Shown in pieces: positions 971 through 49,113 of a stretch of 64,000 nt of DNA. Under the pieces are notes generated by a model. The model had not been told where the DNA came from and ran no database searches. It worked only from the letters and a program-made list of their open reading frames with translations. The DNA lies in the NCBI GenBank assembly GCA_022508885.1, contig JAFLUG010000002.1, forward strand, positions 6,816 through 70,815. The letters run 5' to 3'. The stretch's first letter is position 1; each line of letters starts with the position of its first letter. The translations under genes were made by a program, and so were the position numbers. This DNA is from Oscillospiraceae bacterium. Lineage in GTDB: Bacteria > Bacillota > Clostridia > Oscillospirales > Ruminococcaceae.

Positions 971-972
971 AT

Positions 973-30816: not shown

Positions 30817-30833
30817 TTACATTTAATTCAAAC

Positions 30834-30868: not shown

Positions 30869-30887
30869 AAACGGGAGATAATACATT

Positions 30888-33204: not shown

Positions 33205-33215
33205 TAGGTGATTTT

Positions 33216-33638
33216 ATGTACTATAAGGAAATAAGAGTGTGGGTTCCGGACGAGGAAGTTTTGGATATCCGTTTTTTAAAGCATGAAAAATTCTTTGTAT
33301 ATAATTTCCTTAATAAGCCGTATATAATTACGGCAGAAATTGTTGATACAAGAAATTATATCGGATTTGGAGCAGATGGAAAGATTTATCTTCTCGACAT
33401 AGAAAACAACCGCGAAGTCTATGCCTCGAGCGCGCTTGCAGTTTTCGGCAGACAGCTTAAGTTATATCGAGATTTAACTGCTATTACCGAACAAACTGAC
33501 GATGAAAAAACACAATCCGAAGATTTTGCAACGGAAATACAAAAGCTGGACAATAACGCGTTTTCAAATGAAAACAATTTCTGGTCTGAGGTTTTGAAAC
33601 AAATAGAGCTTGACTCAATACATGAGGTAAAGATATGA
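33216..33638 (+). CDS. Hypothetical 140-aa protein embedded in the arg operon
   Basis: ORF-track ORF packed between argC and argJ (ATGA overlap with argJ). No arginine-pathway motif recognised. Confidence 0.5.
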   Translation: MYYKEIRVWVPDEEVLDIRFLKHEKFFVYNFLNKPYIITAEIVDTRNYIGFGADGKIYLLDIENNREVYASSALAVFGRQLKLYRDLTAITEQTDDEKTQSEDFATEIQKLDNNAFSNENNFWSEVLKQIELDSIHEVKI

Positions 33639-34870
33639 TAAAAATAAATGGATTTGATTTTATAGACGGCGGTGTTTGTGCCGCAAAGGGCTTTACGGCT
33701 TCGGGAGTTATCGCAGGAATCAAGGCGGGAAACACAACAAAACGCGATCTTGCTCTTATCAAAAGCTCGGTTAGGTGTAAAACCGCGGCGCTGTTTACAA
33801 GAAACAAGGTTAAGGGCGCGCCAATTCTTGTATGCAAGGAACATTTAAACGATGGCTATGCGCAGGCTGTAATTGTAAACAGCGGAAACGCAAATACCTG
33901 TAACTCAAACGGGATCGAAATAGCCGAACAGATGTGCAGTTTAGCGGCAGAAGCTCTCGGACTTGATAAGGACGATATTCTCGTTGGTTCTACCGGCGTT
34001 ATCGGTCAGAAGCTGAGTATTGAACCTATAAAGGCTGTTATTCCCGAGCTTGCCGCTTCGCTCAGCGAAAACGGCAGTCCCCTTGCCTGCGAGGCTATTA
34101 TGACAACCGATACGCGCAAAAAAGAATTTGCGGTTGAGTTTGAGCTTGACGGAAAGAAATGCCGCGTTGGCGGTATCTCAAAAGGCAGCGGAATGATAAA
34201 CCCGAATATGGCTACAATGCTTGCGTTTATCACAACCGATGTGGCGATCAACGGCGAGCTGCTTGAAATGGCTCTGAGAAAGGTATGCGGAGTGACCTAC
34301 AATATGGTAAGCGTAGACGGAGATACTTCTACAAACGATACGCTTATTCTCATGTCCTCGGGTCTTGCTGAAAACAAGGAAATTATCTGCGAGGACGAAA
34401 GCTATGAGATTTTCGTAAACGCGCTTTATGCGGTTATGATGAATCTTGCCCGTGAGACAGCACGCGACGGAGAGGGCGCGACAAAGCTTATAGAATGTGT
34501 TGTAAGCGGCGCTCCCGATGAAAACACCGCGAAAACCGTCGCGAAGTCTGTTATTTCCTCGAGTCTTGTAAAAGCCGCGCTGTTTGCGGCTGACGCAAAT
34601 TGGGGAAGGATTCTGTGCGCGATCGGCTATGCCGACGCCGAGTTTGACATAAGCAAAACCGCGGTTGACCTCGCGAGTGAAAAGGGTGAGATCGCCGTAT
34701 GTGAAAACGGTGCGGGGGTTGATTTTTCGGAAGACAAGGCAAAGGAGATACTTTCCGAAGAGGAAATAAAAATTCTTGTAAATCTCAACAGCGGCGATTC
34801 CTCGGCAATCGCGTGGGGCTGTGATCTTACATTCGATTATGTAAAAATAAATGCTGAGTACAGAACATAA
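33635..34870 (+). CDS. argJ: Bifunctional ornithine acetyltransferase / N-acetylglutamate synthase
   Basis: 411 aa. The autoprocessing region MATMLAFITTD. Confidence 0.93.
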   Translation: MIKINGFDFIDGGVCAAKGFTASGVIAGIKAGNTTKRDLALIKSSVRCKTAALFTRNKVKGAPILVCKEHLNDGYAQAVIVNSGNANTCNSNGIEIAEQMCSLAAEALGLDKDDILVGSTGVIGQKLSIEPIKAVIPELAASLSENGSPLACEAIMTTDTRKKEFAVEFELDGKKCRVGGISKGSGMINPNMATMLAFITTDVAINGELLEMALRKVCGVTYNMVSVDGDTSTNDTLILMSSGLAENKEIICEDESYEIFVNALYAVMMNLARETARDGEGATKLIECVVSGAPDENTAKTVAKSVISSSLVKAALFAADANWGRILCAIGYADAEFDISKTAVDLASEKGEIAVCENGAGVDFSEDKAKEILSEEEIKILVNLNSGDSSAIAWGCDLTFDYVKINAEYRT

Positions 34871-34914
34871 TTTCACTAAAACCATTGTATATTGTTAAAT
34901 TAAGAGGTTTAAAA

Positions 34915-35769
34915 ATGGAAATTGATTACGATATCCGGGCTAACGTGATGGTAGAGGCTCTGCCCTACCTTCAGAAATACAACAACAAGGTAGTTGTGGT
35001 TAAATACGGTGGAAACGCCATGACAAACGAAAGGCTGAAACAAGCGGTAATGCAGGATATCGTCCTGCTTTCGCTGGTTGGTATAAAGGTCGTTCTGGTC
35101 CATGGCGGCGGTCCCGAGATAAACGAAATGCTGAATAAGATCGGCAAGGAAAGCAAGTTTGTAAACGGGCTGAGATATACCGATGAGGAAACGATAGATA
35201 TAGTTCAGATGGTTCTCGCGGGAAAGGTGAACAAGGACTTAGTTTCGATGCTTGAAAGCCACGAGGGCAAGGCGATAGGACTCTGCGGTCTGGACGGAAA
35301 TATGATCGAGGCAAAGACGCTTAATCCCGATCTGGGCTATGTCGGCGAAATAACCGACGTACATCCCGAAATAATCCAGAACGCGCTTGACAATGGATAT
35401 ATTCCCGTAATTTCGACGATAGGACGCGGCAAGGACGGGACAGTCTACAATATAAACGCCGATACTGCCGCCGCGAGAATAGCGGCGGAAATGAAAGCTC
35501 CGAGCCTTATACTTCTGACCGATATCAAGGGACTTTTGGAGGATAAGGACGACGAAAATACAATTATCAGAACCGTCGGCGTAAGCGAGGTCCCGTATCT
35601 CAAAAAACAGGGAATTATTTCGGGAGGAATGATCCCGAAGATAGAGTGCTGTGTTGAGGCTGTACGCCGAGGAGTCAAGCAGGCGAATATAATTGACGGA
35701 AGAATACCGCATTCGATCCTGATTGAGCTTCTTACGGATATCGGCGCGGGAACGATGATAATTGCGTGA
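34915..35769 (+). CDS. argB: Acetylglutamate kinase
   Basis: VVVKYGGNAM ... VLVHGGGP motifs. The ATG at 34915 follows AAGAGG. Confidence 0.93.
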   Translation: MEIDYDIRANVMVEALPYLQKYNNKVVVVKYGGNAMTNERLKQAVMQDIVLLSLVGIKVVLVHGGGPEINEMLNKIGKESKFVNGLRYTDEETIDIVQMVLAGKVNKDLVSMLESHEGKAIGLCGLDGNMIEAKTLNPDLGYVGEITDVHPEIIQNALDNGYIPVISTIGRGKDGTVYNINADTAAARIAAEMKAPSLILLTDIKGLLEDKDDENTIIRTVGVSEVPYLKKQGIISGGMIPKIECCVEAVRRGVKQANIIDGRIPHSILIELLTDIGAGTMIIA

Positions 35770-35776
35770 GGTAAAA

Positions 35777-36940
35777 ATGAAAACGATTGAACAATTCAAC
35801 AAATATGTCATGCATTCTTACGGCAGGTATGACCTCGTTTTGGACAGCGGCGGGGACGTGACCTCTGTTGATGAAGAAGGCAAAAGCTATATTGATTTCG
35901 GCTCGGGAATAGGTGTAAATTCTCTGGGCTACTGTAACGACGAGTGGGTTGAAGCGGTTTGCTCTCAGGCAAAAAGACTTCAGCATACGTCAAATTATTA
36001 TTATACAAAAGTTCAGGCTGATTTTGCTAAGGCGCTTTGTGAAACCGCGGGTTATACAAATTTATTTTTCGGAAACTCGGGTGCTGAGGCAAATGAATGT
36101 GCTATCAAAATCGCGCGTAAGTACAGTTTTGATAAATACGGAAAAGGCCGTCACAACATAATAACCCTAAAAAACTCGTTTCACGGAAGAACGATAGCCA
36201 CGCTTTCAGCAACAGGTCAGGACGTTTTTCACAACTACTTCTTCCCTTTTGTAGAGGGCTTTGTAAACGTTGAGGCAAATAATATCGCTGATTTGCGCGA
36301 AAAGCTTGACGATACGGTCTGCGCGGTCATGTTTGAATATATTCAGGGTGAGGGCGGAGTAAATCGGCTTGAACAGGAGTTTGTTGATGAGATTTTTAAA
36401 CTCTGTGCCGAAAACGATGTTATTACAATTGCGGACGAGGTTCAGACCGGCGTCGGAAGAACGGGAAAGTTTCTCTGCGGAGATCATTACGGTCACAAGG
36501 CTGATCTTACGACGCTTGCCAAGGGACTTGCGGGAGGAATACCGATAGGCGCTTGTCTTTCGGGAGAAAAATGCGCGAATGTGCTTGTTCCAGGAACGCA
36601 CGGTTCTACTTTCGGCGGAAATCCCATCGCGTGCGCGGGCGGTCTTGCGGTCTTAAACAAATTAAACACTGCCGGATTTCTTGATGAGGTTTCAAAAAAG
36701 GGCAAGTATTTTTGCGATAAGCTGAATGAAATTCCCGAGGTGAAATCGCTTTCGGGTCTCGGGCTGATGATAGGTATTGAATTAAAAACAAAGAACGCGC
36801 ATAATGCCGCAAAGGAAGCGCTTGAAAACGGACTATTAGTCCTTACTGCTAAGGAAAAACTGAGGTTTTTGCCGCCTCTTACAATTTCCTATAAGGAAAT
36901 CGACGAGGGGATGAAAATACTTGCAGGTCTTTTGAAATAG
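35777..36940 (+). CDS. argD: Acetylornithine aminotransferase
   Basis: Class-III aminotransferase with GNSGAEANE ... ADEVQTGVGRTG ... TFGGNP. The ATG at 35777 follows GAGG. Confidence 0.9.
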   Translation: MKTIEQFNKYVMHSYGRYDLVLDSGGDVTSVDEEGKSYIDFGSGIGVNSLGYCNDEWVEAVCSQAKRLQHTSNYYYTKVQADFAKALCETAGYTNLFFGNSGAEANECAIKIARKYSFDKYGKGRHNIITLKNSFHGRTIATLSATGQDVFHNYFFPFVEGFVNVEANNIADLREKLDDTVCAVMFEYIQGEGGVNRLEQEFVDEIFKLCAENDVITIADEVQTGVGRTGKFLCGDHYGHKADLTTLAKGLAGGIPIGACLSGEKCANVLVPGTHGSTFGGNPIACAGGLAVLNKLNTAGFLDEVSKKGKYFCDKLNEIPEVKSLSGLGLMIGIELKTKNAHNAAKEALENGLLVLTAKEKLRFLPPLTISYKEIDEGMKILAGLLK

Positions 36941-36953
36941 GAAGGGAGCGAAG

Positions 36954-37358
36954 ATGAAAAGAATAACACAGATCATATCGGTTATCAGCATTCTTATCGC
37001 GGCTATTGCTTTGATATTTAACTTTCAGGTTCTTTCCGGTAAAAGCTATTTTATAAGATTTGCTATTTTCTCCACCATCCGCAGAGGCGATATTATGGGT
37101 TTTCTCGGAAATCTTCTCGGACTTCTGATAACATCGTTCGCTTTTGCGGCAATGGGCATTTACGGAGCTATGCTGTCGATCTTCAACAGAGAAAAAGCGC
37201 GCAAGCCTGCTCTGATTTCGGGAATCTGCGTCACGGTATTGGCTCTTGTTTCCTTGTTTTTCAGCTTTAATAACAATTTCAATATCGGCGATATATTTAT
37301 TATTCTCTTCCCTGCCGCGTTTACGTTTTGCGTGATACAGACAACTGATGTTAAATAA
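36954..37358 (+). CDS. Hypothetical membrane protein, 134 aa, between argD and argF
   Basis: Four predicted hydrophobic segments. No motif recognised. Confidence 0.5.
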   Translation: MKRITQIISVISILIAAIALIFNFQVLSGKSYFIRFAIFSTIRRGDIMGFLGNLLGLLITSFAFAAMGIYGAMLSIFNREKARKPALISGICVTVLALVSLFFSFNNNFNIGDIFIILFPAAFTFCVIQTTDVK

Positions 37359-37379
37359 AACTTGAAAGGAATTGATCTA

Positions 37380-38291
37380 ATGAAACATTTATTGAAACTT
37401 CTCGATTTAAGCACAGAGGAGATCATTGATATCCTTAACCTCGCGGATCAGCTTAAATACGAGCAGAAGCACGGTATTCCCCACAACATTTTAAAGGGAA
37501 TGACACTCGGAATGATTTTCCAGAAGGCGTCTACAAGAACTCGTGTTTCTTTTGAAACGGGAATGTACCAGCTTGGCGGAAACGCGCTGTTTCTTTCTTC
37601 AAAAGAGCTTCAGATAGGACGCGGAGAGCCTGTACAGGATACGGCGCGTGTTCTGTCACGGTATCTTAACGGAATAATGATAAGAACATTTGAGCAGGCT
37701 GAAGTTGAAAACCTCGCAGAATACGGCTCTATACCGATCATAAACGGACTTACCGATTTCTGCCATCCTTGTCAGGTGCTTGCCGATCTGCAGACTATCC
37801 GCGAATACAAGAACAAGCTCGAGGGTCTTAATTTCTGCTATATCGGTGACGGGAACAATATGGCGAATTCTCTGACAGTCGGCTGTCTCAAAGTAGGAAT
37901 GAATGTAACTCTCGCCTGCCCCGAGGGATATTACCCTGACAAGCAGATCCTTGATTTCACAAGGGACTATGAAAACTTCAAGATCATAAACGATCCTGTT
38001 GAGGCAGCCGCGGACGCCGATGTTCTTTATACCGACGTATGGGCTTCAATGGGAATGGAAGATGAGGTTGAAAAGCGCAAAGCAGCGTTTAAGGGCTATC
38101 AGATAAACGACAGCGTTATGGCTTCGGCAAAGTCCGACGCGATAGTTATGCACTGCCTGCCTGCTCACCGTGAAGAGGAAATAACCTCAAAGGTATTTGA
38201 ACAGCACGCAAAGGAGATTTTTGACGAGGCTGAAAACCGTCTTCACGCGCAAAAAGCTGTAATGGTAAGGCTAATGGCTAACGAAGGCTGA
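37380..38291 (+). CDS. argF: Ornithine carbamoyltransferase
   Basis: STRTRVSFE ... HPCQ ... HCLPA motifs. I prefer the ATG at 37380 over the upstream TTG at 37362. Confidence 0.93.
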   Translation: MKHLLKLLDLSTEEIIDILNLADQLKYEQKHGIPHNILKGMTLGMIFQKASTRTRVSFETGMYQLGGNALFLSSKELQIGRGEPVQDTARVLSRYLNGIMIRTFEQAEVENLAEYGSIPIINGLTDFCHPCQVLADLQTIREYKNKLEGLNFCYIGDGNNMANSLTVGCLKVGMNVTLACPEGYYPDKQILDFTRDYENFKIINDPVEAAADADVLYTDVWASMGMEDEVEKRKAAFKGYQINDSVMASAKSDAIVMHCLPAHREEEITSKVFEQHAKEIFDEAENRLHAQKAVMVRLMANEG

Positions 38292-38305
38292 TTATTGGCA
38301 TAATA

Positions 38306-38340
38306 ACCGACACTGTTTAAATACAGTGTCGGTTTTATTT
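38306..38340. terminator. Rho-independent (bidirectional) terminator after argF
   Basis: ACCGACACTGT-ttaaat-ACAGTGTCGGT followed by TTTATTT. Confidence 0.8.
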
Positions 38341-38527
38341 ATGTATTCAACTCGGAAATCAGCTTTTCGATTATATATTTTTTTTCCTCTGCGCTGATAT
38401 TAAGGTTTTCAAGATATTTTTGTACGGTATGAGCAAACAGTCTGTTAGTTTCCTCCTTTAAATTAAATAGTGCGGTATCGTTTGTAAAATGTACTACCGC
38501 GTTTATTTTTTTCTGCATTTTCGGCAT
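38339..38527 (-). CDS. Hypothetical 62-aa protein divergent from the serine recombinase gene
   Basis: ORF-track ORF. A small helical protein. No motif recognised. Confidence 0.4.
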   Translation of the reverse strand: MPKMQKKINAVVHFTNDTALFNLKEETNRLFAHTVQKYLENLNISAEEKKYIIEKLISELNT

Positions 38528-38609
38528 ACGGTCAACCCCCTTTAGAGTAATATTATGACGGCGTACTTGTACAAGATTACGCGTAATTCAACTAAAAGGG
38601 AGCGTTTGC

Positions 38610-40220
38610 ATGAAAATCGCTGTTTATTCCCGAAAATCAAAATTTACCGGCAAGGGAGAAAGTATCGAAAACCAGATAGCGCTATGCAAAGAGTACATTA
38701 AAACGCATATTCCCAATGCAGCCGAAGATGACGTTTCTATTTATGAGGACGAGGGATTTTCCGGAAAAAATTTTGACCGTCCGCAGTTTAAAAAAATGAT
38801 GAAAACAGCAGAAAATGCTCCTTTCGACTATATCGTTGTTTACCGTCTTGACAGGATAAGCAGAAGCGTAGGAGATTTCGCGAATCTTATCGAAAAGCTG
38901 AATGAAATGAAAACCGCTTTTGTATGCATTAAAGAGCAGTTTGATACATCAACGCCCATGGGACGCGCAATGATGAATATTTCGGCGGTTTTCGCGCAGC
39001 TTGAGCGCGAAACAATAGCCGAGCGAATTCGAGACAATATAGTTCTCCTTGCTAAAACGGGACGTTGGCTCGGAGGAGTAACTCCTCTCGGATTTACAGG
39101 CGAAAAGGTTGAAATAAAAGATCCGGAGAATAAAAGACGTTTTGCGTTTAAACTTTCCCCGATCAAGAGTGAAATATTTACGGTAAAAACAATTTACGCG
39201 AGATTTCTCGAATCTCATTCTTTGACCAAAACGGTAACGTGGCTGATATCTCACGGTATAAAAACTCGTAAGAAAAACGATTTCAGAGCAAGGACAGTAA
39301 AGGATATTCTTAAAAATCCTGTATACTGCACAGCAGACGGCGACGCATTTGAATATTTTGAAGAACTTGGCTGTGATATATGCTTTACAAAGGAGGAAGC
39401 CGACGGAAAGCAAGGTATAATGCCGTTTTTAAGGACTTCTCAAAGCGGCAAGAAAACTCGACGAAACACGCCCGAGGAATGGATAATTGCTATTGGAAAG
39501 CATAAGGGAATCATTTCTTCGGAAGATTGGATCAAGACTCAGAACCTGCTTGGAAAAAATTCCTCTAAAACCTTCTATAAGCCGTCAAGAAACAGTACGG
39601 CAATATTTACGGGACTTGTAAAATGCGGTGAATGCGGACACAATATGCGTCCGCGACTATCAGGCCAAAATAAAGGCAACGATCCGCGAAAATTTACATA
39701 CATGTGCGAATATAAGGAACGTTCGAGAAGATCAAAATGTCGTATGCGCAACGCAAGCGGCAATATGCTTGATGAGAGCGTCATCACAGAAATACTTAAG
39801 CTCGGACAACTCAACGATCTAACCCAAAAGGAATTAACTGCCCTGCTGAATTCTGTCAAGAATGAAAAATTATCCGAAAATATAAACGAGATGAAAAAAC
39901 AAATCTCTGAAAAGGAAAAAATGATTTCAAAGCTTATGAACAGCTTTGCGGCTTCAGAAAACAGCTCATCATACGAATATGTAAAGCGTGAAACAGAGAA
40001 GATCGACAACGAGATAAAATGCCTTAGGGAAGAGCTTATGCACATTAATAATTCTGAAAAACAAACTGAAATCTTGAATATTGAATGTATTGTAAATGAG
40101 TTAATGGATTTCAAAAAAAGCTTTACGGGACTTTCGATCATTGAAAAACGGGATTTTGTAAATAAAGTTATTGAAAAAATTGTTTGGGACGGAGAAAAAG
40201 CAAATGTATATCTTAAGTAG
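38610..40220 (+). CDS. Large serine recombinase (SpoIVCA/phage-integrase type), 536 aa
   Basis: Resolvase catalytic domain (VYSRKSKFTGKGESIENQ ... VVYRLDRISRS), recombinase domain, Cys-rich zinc ribbon (CGECGHNM...CEYKERSRRSKC) and a C-terminal coiled coil. Confidence 0.9.
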   Translation: MKIAVYSRKSKFTGKGESIENQIALCKEYIKTHIPNAAEDDVSIYEDEGFSGKNFDRPQFKKMMKTAENAPFDYIVVYRLDRISRSVGDFANLIEKLNEMKTAFVCIKEQFDTSTPMGRAMMNISAVFAQLERETIAERIRDNIVLLAKTGRWLGGVTPLGFTGEKVEIKDPENKRRFAFKLSPIKSEIFTVKTIYARFLESHSLTKTVTWLISHGIKTRKKNDFRARTVKDILKNPVYCTADGDAFEYFEELGCDICFTKEEADGKQGIMPFLRTSQSGKKTRRNTPEEWIIAIGKHKGIISSEDWIKTQNLLGKNSSKTFYKPSRNSTAIFTGLVKCGECGHNMRPRLSGQNKGNDPRKFTYMCEYKERSRRSKCRMRNASGNMLDESVITEILKLGQLNDLTQKELTALLNSVKNEKLSENINEMKKQISEKEKMISKLMNSFAASENSSSYEYVKRETEKIDNEIKCLREELMHINNSEKQTEILNIECIVNELMDFKKSFTGLSIIEKRDFVNKVIEKIVWDGEKANVYLK

Positions 40221-40235
40221 TTTAAACCAAAACAG

Positions 40236-40296
40236 TTGACATTTTAATGAATTAATGTTATAATTGTATACGAAAATAATTGAAGAGGTATACAAT
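40236..40296 (+). promoter_or_regulatory. birA promoter with a BirA-operator-like inverted repeat
   Basis: TTGACA (40236-40241), 17-nt spacer, TATAAT (40259-40264). This overlaps the perfect inverted repeat ATTGTATAC-N16-GTATACAAT (40263-40296), which also spans the RBS. Confidence 0.5.
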
Positions 40297-40297
40297 T

Positions 40298-41269
40298 TTG
40301 ACTATCAAAGAGCAGCTTTACGGTCTTCTCGAGGAAAACCGAGGTAATTTTATTTCCGGCGAAGATATTGCAAAACAGCTTTACTGTACACGCGGAGCTG
40401 TTTGGAAAGCAATAAAAGCTCTGAGAAACGAGGGTTTTGAAATAAAGGCGGTTACAAACCGCGGATATTGTCTGTGTGACAGCGGAGATATTCTCAGTGC
40501 AGCAGGAATAAAACGTTATTTAAACAGAAAATGCAGTATAACCGTTCTCAAAACCATCAGCTCAACAAACGCTTACCTGCGGGAATTGGCCCAGAATGGC
40601 GCGAACGAGGGCGCCTTGGTTGTTTCCTGCGAGCAGACAAGCGGTTATGGAAGACGCAAAAGAAACTTCTTCTCTCCTGCCGATACAGGACTTTATATGA
40701 GTATTTTACTGCGCCCGCCGTTTTCCGCGCAGGAATCCGTAAAAATCACCGCGGCAGGCGCGGCGGCGGTTTGTATTGCGATAGAAAATGTTACGGGAGT
40801 ATATTCGGGCATAAAATGGGTAAACGACATCTTTGTTCAGAATAAAAAGGTTGCGGGCATTTTAACGGAAGCGTCGCTTAACATTGAAAACGGATTGCTT
40901 GATTATGCTATTATCGGCATAGGAATTAATGTTTATAAACCCGAAAACGGTTTTCCGTCTGAAATATCGGAAATAGCCGGGGCGTTGATTGACAAACGTA
41001 CGTCAGATGTACGAAATAAGCTTGTAGTTGAAATATACGATCATTTTATGAAGTTCTACGAAAAGTTTCCCGAATGTGATTATGTCCGTGAATACCAAAA
41101 ACGGCTTATGTGGCTGGGCGAGCGTATTTATATTCATTCGGGAGCAGACGGACATATTAAAACCCCCGCCGTTCTACTCGGAACAGATGAGAGCTGTGCG
41201 CTTAGGATCCGATATGATGATGGCACAGAGGATATTATTTATTCGGGGGAAATCAGTATCAACAGATAG
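40298..41269 (+). CDS. birA: Bifunctional biotin-[acetyl-CoA-carboxylase] ligase / biotin operon repressor
   Basis: N-terminal winged HTH (SGEDIAKQLYCTRGAVWKAIKALRNEGFEI), GRGRR-like loop GYGRRKRNF, and KWVNDI. I prefer the TTG at 40298 (after GAAGAGG). The ORF-track start is 40280. Confidence 0.88.
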   Translation: MTIKEQLYGLLEENRGNFISGEDIAKQLYCTRGAVWKAIKALRNEGFEIKAVTNRGYCLCDSGDILSAAGIKRYLNRKCSITVLKTISSTNAYLRELAQNGANEGALVVSCEQTSGYGRRKRNFFSPADTGLYMSILLRPPFSAQESVKITAAGAAAVCIAIENVTGVYSGIKWVNDIFVQNKKVAGILTEASLNIENGLLDYAIIGIGINVYKPENGFPSEISEIAGALIDKRTSDVRNKLVVEIYDHFMKFYEKFPECDYVREYQKRLMWLGERIYIHSGADGHIKTPAVLLGTDESCALRIRYDDGTEDIIYSGEISINR

Positions 41270-41652
41270 AAATATTTTATTTTCCGAGATTGTGTAATTG
41301 CATTATCAATACATCTGGAAGCGTAAGTGGAAAATTTGTTGTTTTTATTGAGGTCAAAGGTTTCTGCGGCACGAATGAGACCTATCGTTCCGATTGATAC
41401 AAGGTCGTCCGCGTCCGGAAAATCGGGATACTTTTTATTTACAATGTACGCGACAAGTCTGAGGTTATGTATGATAAGCCTGTCACGCGCTGTTTTAATT
41501 TCAATTTCCGTGCTTTCCGGATTTGACATTATTTTGAGACATTGTGCTTCTTCCTTTGATGAAAGCTGCTTTGGGAAATTATTTTTCCCATCGAAATGAA
41601 GTCCGAACAGCAAAAAGTTTTCAAGCGCGAGTTTTAATATCAGCCAAAACAT
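41239..41652 (-). pseudogene. sigK: 5' segment of the sporulation sigma factor gene sigK (pro-sequence and region 2 only; spoIVCB-like fragment)
   Basis: NNFPKQLSSKEE ... IIHNLRLVAYIV ... DLVSIGTIGLIRAAETF ... STYASRCIDNAI parallels B. subtilis pro-SigK up to ATYAARCIENEI. The sequence then diverges (TQSRKIKYFYLLILISPE*) and the tail runs into the birA 3' end. Regions 3 and 4 are absent. Confidence 0.75.
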
Positions 41653-41732
41653 AGTAAGTTCCTTTCGTTATTTTTTTGTGTGGATTTATTTTATTACTCT
41701 GCGCTTGTTTAATATTCATAATATACTGTAAA

Positions 41733-41760
41733 GCGCGGACAAATATATTTTTGTCCGCGC
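41733..41760 (-). terminator. Terminator hairpin after the histidine kinase gene
   Basis: GCGCGGACAAA-tatatt-TTTGTCCGCGC, 11-bp stem. Weak T-run on the minus strand. Confidence 0.5.
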
Positions 41761-41765
41761 ATCGA

Positions 41766-43247
41766 TTATTGTTTTTTCTGCAGCTTAAGCTCAAGCTTAT
41801 GCTTTTGAGGTTCTTCCGGTTGTTTTTCAATCAGATCCGACAGTTCGGGAGCTTCAAACCAGAATTTACTTCCCTGCCCCAAACTGCTCTCAGCGCCGTA
41901 TTTAAAGCCGTGCTGCTCAAGTACGCTTTTTACGATTGAAAGCCCTATACCGCTTCCCATTTTCGCGCGCTTGTGTGTAGCAGAGCGCTCGCTTACCTTG
42001 TAGTATCTGTCCCAGATATACGGAAGATTTTCGGGAGAAATACCCTCTCCGTGATCCTCAACCTCAAATCTTACCATTCCCTTATCATTTTTGAAAAGTC
42101 TTACAAATACCTTCTTATCGTCTCCGGCGTATGTTACCGCGTTGTTTATAAGATTGTATACTACCTGGTCGAGCTTTGATATATCGCCGGATATGCGGAT
42201 ATTATCTTCCGCCTGCAAATCAACGGTAATTCCATCATTGTATTTTACAATATCAAATCTTGAAACAACACCCGATATATTTTCTGAGAGATTAAAAGCT
42301 TCTATATTTAACTCCGTAACCCCCGCCTGAAGTTTAGACAAATCAAGAATGTCCGTTACAAGCGATGAAAGCCTGTCTGTTTCATCTATTATAACTTTAA
42401 TATGCTTTTCGCGTTTTTCAGGGTTATCACCCGAAATATCGCGTATCATCTCGGCATAAGCCTTTATCATTGTAAGAGGAGTTCGCAAATCGTGTGAGAT
42501 GTTTGACATAAGCTCACGCCTGAGATCATCGGATTTTGCTATTTCTTTTGAAGCTTGGGAAAGTGTTCCAGCAAGCTGTTTTATCTCCTCATAATCCCGC
42601 TTTCCTATTTTAGCGTCAAATTTTCCTTGCGGAAGAGTCTTTGCCGAATTGTTTATCCTGATGATAGGTTCGGATATCTTATTTGAAAATAACGCGGAAA
42701 TGAAAATTGTCAATATCATCATCAACAACCCGACGATATAAAACTGCCTTTGGAAAATCTGAACGGTCGTTCCGATAGGCTGGAGATAGTTGAAAATAAA
42801 AATATAAGCCTCGGGACTGTTCCTGTCACTTCCGATGTAGCTTCCCATCATAAGAATAGAGTTGTTTTCCTTTTCATCGCGGAAAGTCTTGTAAATAGTG
42901 CCTGAATCGGAATTGTTTACGCTGTTTATAAAGCTTGATTTGGAAATCATCCTGATTGAAAGACTTCCGCCGAGCATATCGACAAAATACGATCTGTTAT
43001 CGGGATAGATAATCTCGATAAACATTTTCTTGTCAAATGCCTGACTTTCGACTATCTGCTTGATGTCGTCGCTGTACCAATTCGTGCGGATATCTTCATA
43101 AACCTCGCTTATCTCATAGGTTTTCATCCAACCGTAAAACATCGGAAACATAGCGATAAGAAAAATGTAAGTAAACGCAAGCATCGCGATAACGACCACT
43201 TCAAATCTCGCCCAGACGCGAACCTTTATGCTTCGGAAAAAATTCAT
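41766..43247 (-). CDS. Sensor histidine kinase (two TM segments, HAMP, HisKA, HATPase_c)
   Basis: H-box SHDLRTPLT, N-box NLINNAVTY, G-boxes DHGEGI and GSGIGLSIV. Confidence 0.9.
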   Translation of the reverse strand: MNFFRSIKVRVWARFEVVVIAMLAFTYIFLIAMFPMFYGWMKTYEISEVYEDIRTNWYSDDIKQIVESQAFDKKMFIEIIYPDNRSYFVDMLGGSLSIRMISKSSFINSVNNSDSGTIYKTFRDEKENNSILMMGSYIGSDRNSPEAYIFIFNYLQPIGTTVQIFQRQFYIVGLLMMILTIFISALFSNKISEPIIRINNSAKTLPQGKFDAKIGKRDYEEIKQLAGTLSQASKEIAKSDDLRRELMSNISHDLRTPLTMIKAYAEMIRDISGDNPEKREKHIKVIIDETDRLSSLVTDILDLSKLQAGVTELNIEAFNLSENISGVVSRFDIVKYNDGITVDLQAEDNIRISGDISKLDQVVYNLINNAVTYAGDDKKVFVRLFKNDKGMVRFEVEDHGEGISPENLPYIWDRYYKVSERSATHKRAKMGSGIGLSIVKSVLEQHGFKYGAESSLGQGSKFWFEAPELSDLIEKQPEEPQKHKLELKLQKKQ

Positions 43248-43249
43248 TA

Positions 43250-43927
43250 TTAAACCTCGAATTTATACCCCAATCCGCGAAGTGTCACGATAAACTTCCT
43301 GTAAGGACCCAAATTGTTTCTAAGCATTTTTATGTGGGTATCAATGGTTCTGTCATCACCGAAAAAATCATATCCCCAGACCTCTTCGAGCAGCTTGTTT
43401 CTTGTAAGCGCGATATTTTTGTTTCTCACAAGGTAAAATAGCAGGTCATACTCTTTCGGCGTTAGATTCGCCTTTTCACCGTCAATATAAACGTTTCTGG
43501 AAACAAAATTAATCTCAAGCCCCTCAAATTTTTCGATTTCGATCTGAGACGTCTGAGCAGAGGCTGCTGAATTTCGCTTTACGATCGCGTTTATTCTTGC
43601 CATAACCTCCTTGGGAGAAAACGGTTTTACCACATAATCGTCTATGCCTATCTCAAAGCCAAACAGCTTGTCGTATTCTTCACCTCTCGCGGAAAGCATC
43701 ATCATTGGTGTTTGCTTGTATTTTCTTATCTCTTTGCAGGCTGAATATCCGTCGAGTCTCGGCATCATGATATCCATTACGATTATATCATAATCCTTTG
43801 CTTTTGCCATTTCAATAGCCTGCATTCCGTCGTTCGCTTCTTCGACCTCATGTCCTTCGAACTCAGCGTATTCCTTAAGCACCTCACGAATATGCTCTTC
43901 GTCATCTACCACAAGAATTTTATACAT
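43250..43927 (-). CDS. OmpR-family response regulator
   Basis: Receiver domain (ILVVDDE...DIIVMDIMMPRLDG) plus a winged-helix output domain (LTPKEYDLLFYL...RGLGYKF). Confidence 0.92.
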   Translation of the reverse strand: MYKILVVDDEEHIREVLKEYAEFEGHEVEEANDGMQAIEMAKAKDYDIIVMDIMMPRLDGYSACKEIRKYKQTPMMMLSARGEEYDKLFGFEIGIDDYVVKPFSPKEVMARINAIVKRNSAASAQTSQIEIEKFEGLEINFVSRNVYIDGEKANLTPKEYDLLFYLVRNKNIALTRNKLLEEVWGYDFFGDDRTIDTHIKMLRNNLGPYRKFIVTLRGLGYKFEV

Positions 43928-44121
43928 TTTTATCGCACCTCTTTTTATCTAAAGTATATTTTCAGCAAAAGCGGGCGTCCTTTGTTATTAAAAGAACGCC
44001 CAAAATAATAAAGAGAAAACTATGAACATTGCCGTCACTTACCGGTACGGGTACTGCTTGTACCGACAAACAAATAATACAAAATCATTATGTAAACAAC
44101 GTGAAAAGAAACTGAAATTTA

Positions 44122-45204
44122 TTAAAAAACGTCTTCTTTAAACAAATCAATAACCTCTCGCATTTTAAAATCAAGATAATCGGGAATACCGGTTTCAAAG
44201 TAAGTATACTCGTCACATTCAAGGATTATAGCATCATTTTTACATTCTTTAAGAGCCGGCATCTTCATTATTGTTATAACTCTTCCGTCTACCTCTTCAA
44301 GTGTAAATTCTCCGTCAGCCTCTTCCATCAGGCGCTTTATTATTGGTATTCCACATCCGATCTTATGCTTTGAAAAATCGTTTTCGGATAATTCATTTTG
44401 TTTTTCGCTATAATAGCTGTTTTCATTTACGATTTTCAATACAACATAATCTTTTTTGTCAATAACGCATTTCTGAAGTGTAACAATAGGTACACTGTCC
44501 TTTGGAGAATACAAAAGCGAATTCTGCAACGCGTTTATAATCGCACAGATGGCATGACGCCTATCGGCGTGAATATAGCAGGCGTCATATACCTTAACAT
44601 AATCGATATATCTGCCGCATTTTGAAAGAAAGGTATTACAGCGATTTATTATTCTTTCCAACAGCTCGCCGCAGTCAATTCTGACATAGTTCGGCTTCTT
44701 TAAAATAATATCGACATACTCGATTATGTTCTGTGAAACAAGATTTGTCTTAACCAGATATTCTTCCATATCCGCGGCGATTTTACTGTTTCCCATATCT
44801 CTTAGCTTGACCATGATATCCCATAGGTGAACGAGATTATACTGGAAAACATCTATGGTAGGAAGAAGTCTGCTGAAAAAATCCGTATTTCTCGCGATCC
44901 TTCCGAGCTCGTGACTGTCAAACAGCCCGCATATATAAAACCTGTCTGTTTTTATAATTTTTGCACAGTACTGAACGCCCTTAACAACAAAAATCGTGGA
45001 TGTAAATGTCTCGCTTGTAAACAGCTCGTCACGGTCTGAATATAAATTTACCTTTGTTTTAAGCGGTATAATTCCTTTCTTACTGTAAACGCATTCCAGG
45101 CTGTTGTTAAAAATCGCGGTAGGAAAGTCAACGGCTTCACAGAAACCTACTAAGTTTTTCAGCTCGTCGGCTTCAGAAACAGATTTATCTTTAATCTCAA
45201 CCAA
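44122..45204 (-). CDS. Hypothetical cytoplasmic protein with a GHKL/HATPase_c-like C-terminal domain
   Basis: 360 aa, no TM segment. AICAIINALQNSLLYS (N-box-like) and GCGIPIIKRLMEEADGEF (G2-like). No clear H-box. Confidence 0.45.
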   Translation of the reverse strand: MVEIKDKSVSEADELKNLVGFCEAVDFPTAIFNNSLECVYSKKGIIPLKTKVNLYSDRDELFTSETFTSTIFVVKGVQYCAKIIKTDRFYICGLFDSHELGRIARNTDFFSRLLPTIDVFQYNLVHLWDIMVKLRDMGNSKIAADMEEYLVKTNLVSQNIIEYVDIILKKPNYVRIDCGELLERIINRCNTFLSKCGRYIDYVKVYDACYIHADRRHAICAIINALQNSLLYSPKDSVPIVTLQKCVIDKKDYVVLKIVNENSYYSEKQNELSENDFSKHKIGCGIPIIKRLMEEADGEFTLEEVDGRVITIMKMPALKECKNDAIILECDEYTYFETGIPDYLDFKMREVIDLFKEDVF

Positions 45205-46993
45205 TCAGATCACTCATTTCATCAAGAAGTCGGTTAAAAAGTTTCATGGCGTTTCTGGCGGGTTCTTCCGATGTCATATCAACGCCCGCGTCCTTTAAAA
45301 GCGAGATAGGATCCTTTGAACAGCCTCCGCTTAAAAAGCCGATATAATCCTTTACGGCGCTTGCTCCCTCATTCAAAATACTTTCAGAAAGGGCTATTGC
45401 CGCCAAAAATCCCGTCGCGTACTGATAAACATAATAGTTATAATAGAAATGCGGGATCCTTGCCCATTCGACATCAAGCTCACTGTCAACTATAAAATCT
45501 TCTCCGTAATAATCAACATTCAGCTGATGATACACTTCACAAAGCTTATCTGCGGTAAGACTGCCGCCGTTTTCTACAATTTCATTTATCGCAAGCTCAA
45601 ACTCAGCAAACATCGCCTGACGGTAGAAGGTCGTTCTGAACTGCTCTAAGAAATAATTTACCAGATATGCTCTCAGCTTTTTATCTGAGCAATTCTTAAG
45701 CAAATGGCGCATAAGCAGGCTTTCGTTGCAGGTAGAAGCGACCTCCGCGACAAAAATAACATAATCTGAATAAACTACGGGCTGGTTTTTATTGGACAGA
45801 TAGGAATGGATAGCATGTCCCATTTCGTGCGCAAGAGTAAACTCACAGTTTAACGTATCTTTGTGATTAAGCAAAACAAACGGATGGATTCGTGCTCCCG
45901 CAGAATAAGCTCCGCTTCGTTTTCCGACATTTTCGTACACATCTATCCAGCGCTCGTCAATGGCCTTCTTAAAAATCGCGCGGTATTCCTCGCCCATAGG
46001 CTCAAGAGATGCATAAACCTCTTCTACTGCTTTTTCAAACGGAATTTTAAGGTCTATGTCATTTATACAAGGCGCGGACAGATCATAAGCGTGAAACTCG
46101 TCTGTTCCGAGAGCTTTTTTATGGATCTTAATATACCTATGCAGCGGTTCTAAATTCTCGCGGACGGACTTTATAAGCCGACGGTAAACCTCCGTATCCA
46201 CCTCATTTGCAGATAGAGCTGCCTCAAGTGTAGAGGAATATTTTCTCGCTCTCGCGTTGAACACAAGCGACTTGATCTGAGAAGAAAGCGTAGCCGCGCA
46301 GGTGTTTTTGAATTTACTGTATGTCTGATGTACGGACTCAAACGACGACTTTCTTAACACTCTGTCGGAACTGCGCATATACGCAACATGGCTTTCGTGA
46401 GTGACCTGATGAATATTTCCGTCTTTATCGACAGCATCGGGAAAGATAAGATCCGCGTCGTTGAACATCGAGAATATCGTATCTGGAGACTCCGCCATCT
46501 CGCCCGCAAGCGCAAGTATCTTCTCCTCATTTTCGGATAGGATATGTCCGCGTTTTATCCTTACGCGTTCAAGCGCTCTCTTGTATAATTTCAGTTCGGG
46601 AAGCTTGTCAAAAAAATCCGAAAGAGTTTCATCGGAAATGGAAAGTATCTCAGGAGAAGCAAATGCCGCCGCGTCAGACAAAGAAACATAAAGCATTCCA
46701 AGACGGTTTGACATATCCTGATACTTGGAAACACGCGTGTCCTCGTCACTTTTACGCTGAGAATAGTTAATAAGCTTATCCAGCAAAACGGTAAGCTCAT
46801 CGTCCAACCGGCAATAATCTAACAGATCTTCTGCGGAGCTACAGAGCTTTCCTTTAAATCCCGCAATTTTTTCCGCGTAACCCATTGCCTTCTTATAATC
46901 ATCTTCCCAAAGCTCGTCGTTTTTGTAGATGTCATTTATTGACCAACGGCTTTTCTCGGGAATATCAGCGCGCTCGGGTATTCTATCCGACAT
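45197..46993 (-). CDS. pepF: Oligoendopeptidase F (M3B family)
   Basis: The HEMGHAIH zinc motif. I prefer the start at 46993 (AAAGGAG upstream). The ORF-track start is 47011. Confidence 0.9.
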   Translation of the reverse strand: MSDRIPERADIPEKSRWSINDIYKNDELWEDDYKKAMGYAEKIAGFKGKLCSSAEDLLDYCRLDDELTVLLDKLINYSQRKSDEDTRVSKYQDMSNRLGMLYVSLSDAAAFASPEILSISDETLSDFFDKLPELKLYKRALERVRIKRGHILSENEEKILALAGEMAESPDTIFSMFNDADLIFPDAVDKDGNIHQVTHESHVAYMRSSDRVLRKSSFESVHQTYSKFKNTCAATLSSQIKSLVFNARARKYSSTLEAALSANEVDTEVYRRLIKSVRENLEPLHRYIKIHKKALGTDEFHAYDLSAPCINDIDLKIPFEKAVEEVYASLEPMGEEYRAIFKKAIDERWIDVYENVGKRSGAYSAGARIHPFVLLNHKDTLNCEFTLAHEMGHAIHSYLSNKNQPVVYSDYVIFVAEVASTCNESLLMRHLLKNCSDKKLRAYLVNYFLEQFRTTFYRQAMFAEFELAINEIVENGGSLTADKLCEVYHQLNVDYYGEDFIVDSELDVEWARIPHFYYNYYVYQYATGFLAAIALSESILNEGASAVKDYIGFLSGGCSKDPISLLKDAGVDMTSEEPARNAMKLFNRLLDEMSDLIG

Positions 46994-47013
46994 ATGATCT
47001 CCTTTCGTCAATC

Positions 47014-47604: not shown

Positions 47605-47623
47605 AAATTCTTACAATACTTAA

Positions 47624-48178: not shown

Positions 48179-48179
48179 A

Positions 48180-49034: not shown

Positions 49035-49113
49035 TTACACTTCTCCCGATAATCCAATATAATGTTATTATACCATAATATCTAAAAAAATGCAATAGCT
49101 TTTGTTAAAATTC

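What the first reader, a model, noticed from the sequence alone, without database searches (positions are those of the whole stretch)
38339..41652. sigK truncated after region 2 with a large serine recombinase 1 kb away: skin-like split gene, but the 'element' side is housekeeping DNA
The ORF at 41652-41239 matches pro-SigK through ...STYASRCIDNAI and then loses similarity. Regions 3 and 4 are missing. In Bacillus subtilis and some Clostridia, sigK is split by an intervening (skin) element. It is rejoined in the mother cell by a large serine recombinase (SpoIVCA) encoded at the element end. Here a 536-aa large serine recombinase (38610-40220) sits close to the break. A divergent 62-aa gene and a CTTGTACAAG palindrome (38566-38575) lie upstream of it.

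The oddity is what lies beyond the break (~41296 and below). It is birA, with its own promoter and operator, then the recombinase, then the complete arg cluster and further essential genes. No sigK 3' half is found on either strand anywhere in the 41 kb to the left. The possibilities are:
- An exceptionally large or unusual intervening segment.
- Reconstitution by inversion rather than excision.
- A relic of a past rearrangement, with an intact sigK elsewhere.
- An assembly chimera.
Basis: partly seen in the sequence, partly recalled or inferred. Interest (0 to 1): 0.75.

Follow-up and report, generated by a model that had tools for sequence, protein, structure and literature searches.

The report
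Split sigK with its halves in swapped order
The sporulation sigma-factor gene sigK is split in this gut Oscillospiraceae genome, but its 3' half lies 46.8 kb upstream of its 5' half, so the neighbouring serine recombinase is predicted to rebuild the gene on an excised DNA circle rather than on the chromosome, a layout I could not find described.

Summary
The window has a sigK 5' half (41652-41303, minus strand), a 536-aa large serine recombinase (38610-40220), a divergent 62-aa gene, and birA between the recombinase and the break.

The missing 3' half is on the same 244,645-bp contig, 23.7 kb beyond the window's right end. It is on the same strand but upstream of the 5' half.

The two junctions are partner recombination sites. 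Both share a TAA core. The non-sigK arms are exact 11-bp reverse complements (TGTGTAATTGC / GCAATTACACA). Joining at the core gives an in-frame 241-aa pro-SigK.

Because the sites are direct repeats in swapped order, recombination should circularise the 46,773 bp between them. That circle would carry the intact sigK together with PolC-like polymerase, ispG, the his operon and alr. The chromosome would keep def-attP-birA-recombinase.

The same order appears in a sister strain and three other species-level genomes. A more distant relative has the classical 58-kb element.

Both halves and the recombinase are under strong purifying selection (dN/dS 0.03-0.13). Chimera, inversion and dead relic are rejected.

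Recombination in sporulating cells is inferred, not shown. This is a new variant of the skin-type rearrangement.

The parts
41303..41652 (-). sigK 5' half: pro-sequence and sigma regions 1.2-2, up to and including the TAA crossover core (41305-41303).
   Evidence: tblastn against B. subtilis SigK. Pfam Sigma70_r2. Homology to the intact sigK of HAN071 ends at 41302.
41239..41302 (-). Non-sigK tail of the ORF (AITQSRKIKYFYLLILISPE*). It is read from the P' arm of the att site and the antisense of the end of birA. It is not part of SigK.
   Evidence: Alignment A1. att comparison.
41275..41330 (-). attL-type site. B arm ...AGATGTATTGA, core TAA (41305-41303), P' arm TGCAATTACACA (11-mer GCAATTACACA at 41301-41291), and outer motif CGGAAA (41286-41281). 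The outer limits of the site are approximate.
   Evidence: The P' arm is the exact reverse complement of the P arm next to the 3' half, 46.8 kb away. The 11-mer occurs once in the window. The same architecture is found in the classical relative L006/L007.
41684..41717 (-). Conserved promoter-like block upstream of sigK: GAATATT-N14-TAATAAAAT, containing TAAACAAGC. It is preceded by the terminator hairpin of the histidine kinase gene (41760-41733).
   Evidence: Alignment of eight relatives, including the intact-sigK species. Coordinates. Resemblance to sigma-E and SpoIIID consensus sequences is from memory and was not tested.
40280..41269 (+). birA (biotin ligase/repressor), lying between attL and the recombinase. 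It ends 5 bp before the start of the attL annotation (41275).
   Evidence: Pfam and NCBIfam. Perfect sigma-70 promoter at 40236-40264. The rabbit-MAG relatives have bioB-bioY-birA here.
38610..40220 (+). Large serine recombinase (SpoIVCA-like), the predicted catalyst of the attL x attR reaction.
   Evidence: Pfam Resolvase + Recombinase + Zn_ribbon_recom. PHROG integrase, E = 9e-117. N-terminal YSRKS motif. 57% identical to the recombinase that abuts the sigK 5' half in the classical relative L006. dN/dS 0.10-0.13.
38528..38609 (.). Divergent control region between the 62-aa gene and the recombinase, containing the conserved palindrome CTTGTACAAG (38566-38575). No sigma-70 match.
   Evidence: Classical relatives have TTGACG-17-TATAAT here instead.
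38339..38527 (-). 62-aa protein, a candidate recombination directionality factor or regulator.
   Evidence: Conserved and divergently placed next to the recombinase in all genomes with the swapped layout. Homologues occur in the classical element L006 and beside a recombinase remnant in L101. No Pfam, PHROG, NCBIfam or PDB match.
41303..64000 (.). Window part of the 46,773-bp segment predicted to be circularised. It continues about 24 kb beyond the window to attR. Window genes: two-component system, pepF, tyrA, fba, his genes, PolC-like DNA polymerase III alpha (59240-62998) and ispG (63011-63979).
   Evidence: Coordinate mapping. Annotations.
1..41302 (.). Window part of the arc that would stay with the recombinase after recombination: birA, recombinase, arg cluster, tmk, mltG-like, znuABC, an inovirus-like element and aroB.

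Best explanation
sigK is a developmentally rearranged gene of the skin type, but with an inside-out layout.

Germline order along the direction of transcription: ...def - attR - sigK 3' half - MatE - SpoVT - ... 46.8 kb ... - response regulator - histidine kinase - sigK 5' half - attL - birA - recombinase - 62-aa gene - arg cluster...

Proposed mechanism:
1. In the mother cell, the large serine recombinase pairs attL with attR. It probably needs the 62-aa protein as its directionality factor.
2. It exchanges strands at the central dinucleotide of the shared TAA core.
3. Because the sites are direct repeats and the 3' half lies upstream, the 46,773 bp between them are released as a circle.
4. 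On that circle the end of the 5' half is fused in frame to the start of the 3' half. This gives a 241-aa pro-sigma-K behind its native promoter.
5. The chromosome is resealed as def-attP-birA-recombinase.

This is topologically the same as a classical skin excision in which the 'element' has become the rest of the chromosome.

What is shown: the arrangement, the partner att sites, the in-frame junction, and conservation under purifying selection.

What is inferred: that recombination happens, that it is confined to the mother cell, that the 62-aa protein is the directionality factor, and that sigK is expressed from the circle.

A likely consequence is that the split cannot be undone by germline excision. 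The circle carries PolC-like polymerase, ispG, fba, alr and the his operon, so the recombinase has become a fixed host gene.
For: Location of the two halves
- The window maps to ENA contig k141_553606 (244,645 bp) in reverse. Window 973-2025 (minus) equals record 181,605-182,657 (plus). L014 is 100% identical to window 12025-1.
- The 5' half is therefore at record 141,978-142,391 (plus).
- The 3' half (P0194) is at record 95,565-95,930 (plus).

Independent assemblies with the same order and strand
- Sister strain k141_96055: 3' half at 102,289 and 5' half at 147,936.
- Three other species-level MAG contigs: CANRDI010000001.1, CANQVE010000002.1 and CANQFZ010000002.1.

The att sites
- attL: ...TTGATAA|TGCAATTACACAATCTCGGAAA.
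- attR: TTTCCAAAGGTGTGTAATTGCTAA|CCAAATC...
- The reconstructed attP has a perfect 11-bp inverted repeat plus outer TTTCC/GGAAA motifs.
- The 11-mer occurs once in the 64-kb window and once in the 20-kb locus L010.
- The same site architecture flanks a classical 57.8-kb element in a relative whose recombinase is 57% identical.

The rejoined gene
- Joining at the core gives an in-frame 241-aa protein reading ...CIDNQIKMYFRKIKH....
- It matches intact SigK of the closest unsplit species, HAN071, at 90% identity, and P0267 from another short contig. Both sit in the same HK-sigK-MatE context.
- Its best NCBIfam families are SigK.
- Homology to the unsplit genome breaks exactly at the att core.

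Evidence of function
- dN/dS against the rabbit-MAG species, at saturated dS: 5' half 0.05-0.06, 3' half 0.03. The recombinase gives about 0.10 against one of these species and 0.13 against the sister strain.
- No additional intact sigK locus in these genomes among the 80 best loci of the species-representative scan.
- The sigK promoter block is conserved, including in the unsplit species.
Against: - No recombination product was observed. The exact rejoined protein is not in the 15-billion-protein collection. An attP-junction pattern found nothing in viral or JGI metagenome contigs.
- All genomes are MAG or metagenome contigs. The size of the large arc and the position of oriC are unknown.
- The rejoined protein scores below NCBIfam's curated SigK cut-offs (231.9 against 252; 219 against 298.65).
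- The role of the 62-aa protein rests only on co-occurrence.
- The route from an unsplit ancestor to this layout needs more than one rearrangement and is unresolved.
Confidence: 0.72

Rival explanations
1. Dead relic. A past rearrangement separated the halves, sigK is no longer reconstituted, and the organism has lost sporulation or uses another sigma factor.
For: No rejoined product was detected in public assemblies. Many Oscillospiraceae are not known to form spores (general knowledge).
Against: - Both halves, the recombinase and the att arms are intact in at least four species-level genomes.
- dN/dS is 0.03-0.13 although synonymous sites are saturated.
- The attP arms remain perfectly complementary.
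- The promoter block is conserved.
- SpoVT and other sporulation-type genes are retained.
Confidence: 0.08
2. The two halves work without DNA rearrangement. They are expressed as separate polypeptides (regions 1.2-2 and regions 3-4) that assemble into a split sigma factor. The recombinase is a bystander.
For: The 3' half is an ATG-initiated ORF of 121 aa that gene callers pick up in many genomes.
Against: - The break sits exactly at a conserved serine-recombinase site whose partner arms flank the two halves.
- The recombinase and its small partner gene are conserved beside the 5' half in every split genome examined.
- The same site and recombinase family form a classical excisable element in a relative.
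- No natural split sigma factor of this kind is known to me (from memory).
Confidence: 0.06
3. Assembly or binning artefact. The true genome has a classical small element, and the swapped order is a misjoin.
For: All data are short-read metagenome assemblies. In the NCBI MAG of the sister strain the halves are on separate contigs.
Against: - Five contigs place the 3' half 46-59 kb upstream of the 5' half on the same strand. They come from different samples, from assemblies with two different contig-naming styles (k141_... and NODE_...), and from four species.
- Both local junctions are reproduced in Logan assemblies of other runs.
- The contig extends 95 kb and 102 kb beyond the two sites without closing.
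Confidence: 0.03
4. Reconstitution takes more than one step. For example, the circle is re-inserted elsewhere, or a second recombination event follows, as in the episome model proposed for Calothrix nif genes. In that case sigK ends up on the chromosome.
For: An episome-mediated multi-step model has been proposed for nifH restoration in Calothrix NIES-4101 (PMC11249958).
Against: - One attL x attR event already yields an intact gene with its promoter.
- No further copies of the att arm exist in the 64-kb window or in the 20-kb loci L010 and L014.
- No second recombinase lies near either junction in this genome.
Confidence: 0.05

Closest known systems
B. subtilis skin element with SpoIVCA (sigK = spoIVCB + spoIIIC)
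   Same: - sigK is split inside the coding region.
- A large serine recombinase is encoded next to a junction.
- attL and attR are direct repeats.
- Joining is precise and in frame, and gives a pro-sigma-K with an N-terminal pro-sequence (46% identity to B. subtilis SigK over the 5' half).
   Different: - In B. subtilis, and in all 15 elements surveyed by Galperin et al. (bioRxiv 10.1101/2022.02.25.481979), the 5' half precedes the 3' half. A discrete 2.6-48 kb element with the recombinase at its edge lies between them, and the element leaves as the circle.
- Here the 3' half precedes the 5' half, and the DNA on the recombinase side is housekeeping chromosome.
- Here birA separates the att site from the recombinase.
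- Here the circle is predicted to carry sigK.
C. difficile skinCd (serine recombinase CD1231 with directionality factor CD1234; PMC5025042)
   Same: A clostridial sigK split served by a serine recombinase whose excision activity depends on a small directionality factor. A small conserved ORF lies beside the recombinase here too.
   Different: - skinCd is a 14.6-kb classical insertion.
- According, its sigK encodes a mature sigma-K that needs no proteolytic activation, whereas this one has a pro-sequence.
- The 62-aa protein has no detectable similarity to any annotated family. It was not compared directly with CD1234.
gin element in B. cereus gerE (GirC + GirX; PMC5595907)
   Same: An intervening DNA without phage genes, where a recombinase plus a small accessory factor are the only functional element genes. 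This is conceptually the closest case to a recombination unit stripped of its mobile element.
   Different: gin is still a discrete insertion between a 5' and a 3' half in the normal order. It interrupts gerE, not sigK.
Heterocyst nif/fdxN/hupL rearrangements, especially Calothrix NIES-4101 (PMC11249958)
   Same: - Developmental, terminal-cell DNA rearrangements that restore genes.
- XisF of the fdxN element is a serine recombinase, and it is one of the top NCBIfam hits for this recombinase.
- The Calothrix paper proposes an excised 58.6-kb episome carrying a restored gene fragment.
   Different: - Different phylum, genes and recombinases.
- The Calothrix episome is a hypothetical intermediate that is re-inserted.
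- Here the circle would be the final carrier of the restored gene.

Membership tests
skin-type sigK-intervening rearrangement | sigK is interrupted within its coding sequence into a 5' (spoIVCB-like) and a 3' (spoIIIC-like) fragment. | tested here: met
   5' half in the window. 3' half P0194 on the same contig.
skin-type sigK-intervening rearrangement | A SpoIVCA-like large serine recombinase is encoded at the edge of the intervening DNA, next to a junction. | tested here: met
   The recombinase at 38610-40220 lies about 1.1 kb from attL, with birA between them. In the classical relative L006 it abuts the junction directly.
skin-type sigK-intervening rearrangement | The 5' half lies upstream of the 3' half, with a discrete element (2.6-58 kb) between them, so that excision restores sigK on the chromosome. 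| tested here: not met
   The 3' half lies 46.8 kb upstream of the 5' half on the same strand in five assemblies. The arc from the 5' break to the 3' half is more than 197 kb of housekeeping DNA.
skin-type sigK-intervening rearrangement | The junctions are attL and attR of one recombinase. They share a core, their element-side arms form an inverted repeat (attP), and joining is in frame. | tested here: met
   Shared TAA core. Perfect 11-bp inverted arms plus outer TTTCC/GGAAA motifs. In-frame 241-aa product.
skin-type sigK-intervening rearrangement | The intervening DNA is prophage-like or otherwise foreign. | tested here: not met
   Both flanks on the recombinase side are housekeeping genes: def, NUDIX and MBOAT on one side; birA, the arg cluster, tmk and aro genes on the other. 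Only the recombinase and the 62-aa gene look element-derived.
skin-type sigK-intervening rearrangement | Recombination is sporulation-specific and confined to the mother cell. | not testable with these tools
   Needs cultures or read-level data. No product was found in assemblies.
skin-type sigK-intervening rearrangement | A recombination directionality factor is required for attL x attR. | tested here: inconclusive
   A conserved 59-66-aa family co-occurs with this recombinase family in both swapped and classical loci. It has no family or structure match.
Large serine recombinase (integrase) family | N-terminal resolvase catalytic domain with a serine nucleophile, followed by a recombinase domain and a zinc-ribbon domain. 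| tested here: met
   Pfam PF00239 (residues 3-153), PF07508 and PF13408. YSRKS motif at residues 6-10. PDB sequence hits to TP901-1 integrase and SprA/YokA.
SigK (NCBIfam NF004471 / TIGR02846) | The full-length protein scores above the curated family cut-off. | tested here: inconclusive
   For the rejoined protein, SigK models are the best hits (231.9 and 219 bits, against SigE at 175). Both are below the cut-offs of 252 and 298.65. The pro-sequence and regions 2-4 align with B. subtilis SigK.
Invertible DNA switch (reconstitution by inversion) | Recombination sites are in inverted orientation. | tested here: not met
   Both halves and both cores are on the same strand.

The most novel reading that the evidence does not exclude
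In a clade of gut Oscillospiraceae, sporulation splits the mother-cell chromosome into two circles. Sigma-K is made from a 46-59 kb extrachromosomal circle that also carries essential genes (PolC-like polymerase, ispG, fba, alr, the his operon). The former skin recombinase and its small partner have become fixed host developmental genes, because germline excision would delete those essential genes. This would be an evolutionary ratchet that turns a selfish element into an irreversible part of the sporulation programme.
Probability: 0.6. Interest if true: 0.8.

Novelty: new variant of a known kind. Interest (0 to 1): 0.72.

Why it matters
Skin-type elements are usually seen as dispensable, strain-specific prophage remnants. 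Whether they are parasites or regulators of sigma-K timing is an old question.

Here the mobile element has shrunk to a recombinase, a small ORF and two half-sites embedded in housekeeping DNA. The layout is conserved across several species and under purifying selection. It cannot be reversed by simple excision.

If confirmed, three things follow:
- A developmental site-specific recombination can be fully taken over by the host.
- An essential late sigma factor can be expressed from an excised circle.
- Terminal differentiation places no constraint on which product of the recombination carries the gene.

There is also a practical point. Genome annotation, and searches for split sporulation genes that assume a 5'-element-3' order, will miss such cases. 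NCBI named this 5' half 'FliA'.

Tried and rejected
Leads that were wrong or biased
- A weak tblastn hit to SigK residues 131-165 at 29910-29788 (E = 1.8) lies antisense inside argG. It is chance.
- GC-skew flips at about 29 kb and 42 kb suggested a recent 12-kb inversion with the 3' half at about 29 kb. No 3' half is there, and the flips follow gene orientation.
- The homologue search with the 5' half listed almost only truncated proteins. This is biased: it missed the intact HAN071 protein (87% identical to the 5' half). The species-representative scan shows many intact sigK genes. I therefore do not claim that most relatives are split.

Searches that found nothing
- Direct evidence of the products. 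Exact look-up of the rejoined proteins of both strains: absent. Degenerate attP-junction pattern in viral contigs and JGI metagenome contigs: no hits.
- The 62-aa protein has no hit in Pfam, NCBIfam, PHROGs or PDB profiles. The only PDB matches are designed helical repeats and are spurious.

- Filling the 13.7-kb gap of the circle (record 105,931-119,629) failed, because the ispG ORF as I delimited it is not on record.
It succeeded through a cluster id.

Unresolved
- Reconstructing the evolutionary path. The closest unsplit genome (HAN071) has U-sigK-MatE-SpoVT-[MBOAT..def]-inverted aro cluster.
  - At least two breakpoints besides the att sites separate the two genomes.
  - No attP remnant follows def in HAN071.
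  - No repeats explain the extra junctions.

Full report
**1. The observation**

The ORF at 41652-41239 (minus strand, 137 aa) contains only sigma-70 region 2 (Pfam E = 3.7e-15). It aligns with B. subtilis SigK residues 16-115 at 46% identity, including the pro-sequence, and stops at ...CIDNAI.

No sequence resembling regions 3-4 exists anywhere in the 64 kb. The only weak hit (29910-29788, E = 1.8) is antisense inside argG.

- 38610-40220 (+) encodes a 536-aa large serine recombinase with Resolvase + Recombinase + Zn_ribbon_recom domains and a PHROG integrase match at E = 9e-117.
- A 62-aa ORF diverges from it at 38339-38527.
- CTTGTACAAG is at 38566-38575.
- birA (40280-41269) lies between the recombinase and the break and has a perfect TTGACA-17-TATAAT promoter.
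- To the left are the arg cluster and ordinary housekeeping genes.

A Logan contig from another run is 100% identical across 31836-49226. The local structure is therefore not an assembly chimera.

**2. Where the 3' half is**

Exact-sequence look-ups show that the window's 5' half and recombinase sit on a 244,645-bp contig. A 121-aa SigK 3' half (P0194, MYFRKIKHRREEV...GISRSYISRIEKKALEKL...) sits on a contig of the same length.

That contig is ENA ERZ27293307 k141_553606, and the 3' half is at 95,565-95,930 on its plus strand.

Window ORF 973-2025 (minus) is at record 181,605-182,657 (plus). L014 is 100% identical to window 12025-1. The mapping is therefore record position = 183,630 minus window position, and the window is record 119,630-183,629 reversed.

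The 5' half is thus at record 141,978-142,391 on the plus strand. Both halves are on the same strand, but the 3' half lies upstream of the 5' half. In window terms it would be at about 88,065-87,700 (minus strand), 23.7 kb beyond the right end.

The 3' half is flanked by def (ending 40 bp upstream) and by MatE and SpoVT downstream. This junction is reproduced in three other assemblies (L011-L013).

**3. The junctions are partner att sites**

In sigK sense, the 5' junction reads AGATGTATTGATAA|TGCAATTACACAATCTCGGAAA. The 3' junction reads TTTCCAAAGGTGTGTAATTGCTAA|CCAAATCAAAATGTAC.

- They share the core TAA.
- The non-sigK arm of one (GCAATTACACA) is the exact reverse complement of the non-sigK arm of the other (TGTGTAATTGC).
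- Both arms carry an outer TTTCC/GGAAA motif.
- The reconstructed attP is therefore a near-perfect 50-bp palindrome centred on AA.
- The 11-mer occurs once in the window and once in L010.
- Joining the sigK arms at the core gives an in-frame 241-aa protein reading ...CIDNQIKMYFRKIKH....
- The conserved 'NAI...RK' tail seen in many truncated homologues (alignment A1) is simply the translated P' arm.

For the rejoined protein, the best NCBIfam models are SigK (231.9 and 219 bits, against SigE at 175). Both scores are below the curated cut-offs.

The distance between the two cores is 46,773 bp.

**4. Consequence of the layout**

The sites are direct repeats, so recombination deletes the DNA between them as a circle. 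Because the 3' half is upstream, the two ends of that segment are the start of the 3' half and the end of the 5' half.

The intact gene, still behind its own promoter, therefore forms on the circle. The chromosome is resealed as def-attP-birA-recombinase.

On a circular chromosome this is topologically identical to a classical skin excision in which the 'element' arc has become the rest of the chromosome. That arc is at least 95.5 + 102.3 kb on this contig alone.

The segment to be circularised carries:
- MatE, SpoVT, a GHL10 protein, an amidase and alr;
- the two-component system, pepF, tyrA, fba and his genes;
- a PolC-like DNA polymerase III alpha (59240-62998) and ispG (63011-63979).

Excision in a vegetative or germline cell would therefore delete essential genes. 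This is an inference from gene content.

**5. Independent support and distribution**

A sister strain (ENA ERZ27293329 k141_96055, 198,113 bp) has the 3' half at 102,289 and the 5' half at 147,936, both on the plus strand, with 46,007 bp between cores.

In the scan of species-representative genomes, three further species-level MAGs carry both halves on one contig, in the same order and on the same strand:

| Contig | 3' half | 5' half |
|---|---|---|
| CANRDI010000001.1 | 135,414 | 194,206 |
| CANQVE010000002.1 | 37,234 | 85,148 |
| CANQFZ010000002.1 | 54,089 | 103,083 |

These genomes, and three more with only the 5' junction available, have RR-HK-5' half-bioB-bioY-birA-recombinase-small ORF. 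No second sigK locus from these genomes was among the 80 loci returned, out of 99 found.

A more distant relative has the classical order on scaffold_27 (192 kb): 5' half at 102,334, then a recombinase abutting it, then a 57.8-kb island, then the 3' half at 160,508. Its att arms are homologous and its recombinase is 57% identical.

The swapped layout is therefore a derivative of an ordinary skin-like system.

**6. Evidence that it is functional**

Against the rabbit-MAG species, synonymous sites are saturated (dS 1.6-3.3). dN/dS values are:
- 0.05-0.06 for the 5' half;
- 0.03 for the 3' half;
- about 0.10 for the recombinase against one rabbit-MAG species, and 0.13 against the sister strain.

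A block upstream of sigK (GAATATT-N14-TAATAAAAT with TAAACAAGC, window 41717-41684) is conserved in all relatives, including the unsplit species. From memory it resembles sigma-E and SpoIIID consensus sequences. That is a lead, not a test.

Upstream of the recombinase, genomes with the swapped layout share the CTTGTACAAG palindrome and lack a sigma-70 match. Classical relatives have TTGACG-17-TATAAT there.

The small ORF (59-66 aa) is conserved beside the recombinase. Homologues also occur in the classical element and beside a recombinase remnant in L101. It has no family or structure match. Its role as a directionality factor is inferred from co-occurrence and from the known need of serine integrases for such a factor in attL x attR reactions (PMC5025042, PMC5499854, PMC12286644).

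**7. The closest unsplit genome**

HAN071 has an intact sigK that is 90% identical to the rejoined protein. Its order is pepF-361aa-RR-HK-sigK-MatE-SpoVT-HTH-130aa-[MBOAT...def]-inverted DUF4364-aroC-aroA-aroB.

Homology to the window genome breaks exactly at the att core (window 41302; L010 9983) and at the def stop codon. This confirms that HK and MatE are the native flanks of sigK. A 1.9-kb Logan contig shows the same HK-sigK-MatE junction.

Compared with the window genome, the block ending in def and the aro cluster are placed differently. At least two breakpoints besides the att sites separate the two genomes. No attP remnant or explanatory repeat was found. The evolutionary route is unresolved.

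**8. What was not found**

- The exact rejoined proteins are absent from the protein collection.
- A degenerate attP-junction pattern gave no hit in viral contigs or JGI metagenome contigs.
- Recombination in vivo is therefore inferred, not observed.

**9. Comparison with what is known**

Galperin et al. surveyed 15 skin elements of 2.6-48 kb. All are discrete insertions with spoIVCA at the edge. Literature searches found no report of a swapped order or of a circle-borne sigK. Those searches cover open-access papers and bioRxiv only.

The nearest concepts are:
- the non-prophage gin element of B. cereus gerE, which depends on a recombinase (GirC) and an accessory factor (GirX);
- the hypothetical 58.6-kb episome in the Calothrix nif model.

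I classify this as a new variant of a known kind. It uses the same chemistry and logic as skin. It fails two usual defining features: the 5'-element-3' order, and foreign intervening DNA.

**10. Verdict**

- The best explanation is a recombinase-mediated circularisation of 46.8 kb, specific to the mother cell, that rebuilds sigK on the circle (confidence about 0.7).
- Interest is 0.72.

Noticed in passing
window 3250-12140: Low-GC (35-39%) integrated element with inovirus-like genes. It has Zot (8659-9462), Rep_trans (9459-10715), a tyrosine integrase (11092-12138), a 590-aa ORF (5758-7530) and an HTH repressor (3660-3890). It lies between the aro cluster and an Rce1-like gene.
   Followed up: no
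window 28440-29357 (minus strand): ImmA/IrrE-type metalloprotease plus XRE repressor pair (PHROG metallo-protease, E = 5e-24). It sits exactly where gene orientation and GC skew flip, next to argG. It could be a remnant of a mobile-element regulatory module.
   Followed up: partly
window 33216-33638 and 36954-37358: Two non-arg ORFs embedded in the arg cluster: a 140-aa SUKH-4-like (immunity-type) protein between argC and argJ, and a 134-aa membrane protein between argD and argF. Both are conserved in the sister strain.
   Followed up: no
window 38339-41269 compared with L100 (sister strain HAN072): The birA-recombinase-62-aa block is clearly more diverged between the two strains than the flanking genes. 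Amino-acid identities are 92%, 90% and 84% for the block, against 96-99% for pepF, RR, HK and argF. This suggests faster evolution or a recombinational exchange of this block.
   Followed up: no
L091 (CANDVA010000004.1), locus positions about 6019 and 9900: Two sigK 3'-half copies (76% and 68% identical to the query) lie 3.9 kb apart on the same strand in one MAG contig.
   Followed up: no
L101 (JAMPFE010000005.1) 5929-8579: An intact sigK is abutted at its stop codon by a truncated 138-aa remnant of the same recombinase family. A relaxase-like ORF and a homologue of the 62-aa protein lie nearby. This looks like a decayed element beside an unsplit gene.
   Followed up: partly
L016 12709-13116 and L017 12680-12930 (spacer between SpoVT and the GHL10 gene): A strain-variable tandem repeat that reads as an (S)LTSFVLT(N/S)S-type repeat ORF occupies this spacer in the sister strain. 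It is absent from the window strain. The same spacer is a synteny breakpoint relative to HAN071.
   Followed up: no
L077 950-5830 and L076 900-6040 (upstream of attR in the rabbit MAGs): The DNA between def and attR is variable. It holds a GntR-ABC transporter module, plus a permease and a cytidylate-kinase-like gene in one species, and a 741-aa hybrid histidine kinase in another. Accessory genes seem to accumulate at the att edge even though no phage genes are present.
   Followed up: partly
one search compared: The word-indexed homologue search with the 119-aa 5' half returned almost only truncated proteins. It missed the intact HAN071 SigK, whose 5' portion is 87% identical to the query. 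Its hit list over-represents split genes and should not be used to estimate how common they are.
   Followed up: yes
(protein names given by NCBI): The sister strain's sigK 5' half is annotated as 'flagellar biosynthesis protein FliA', and the 3' halves as generic sigma-70 family proteins. Split sigK genes of this kind are invisible to name-based surveys.
   Followed up: no
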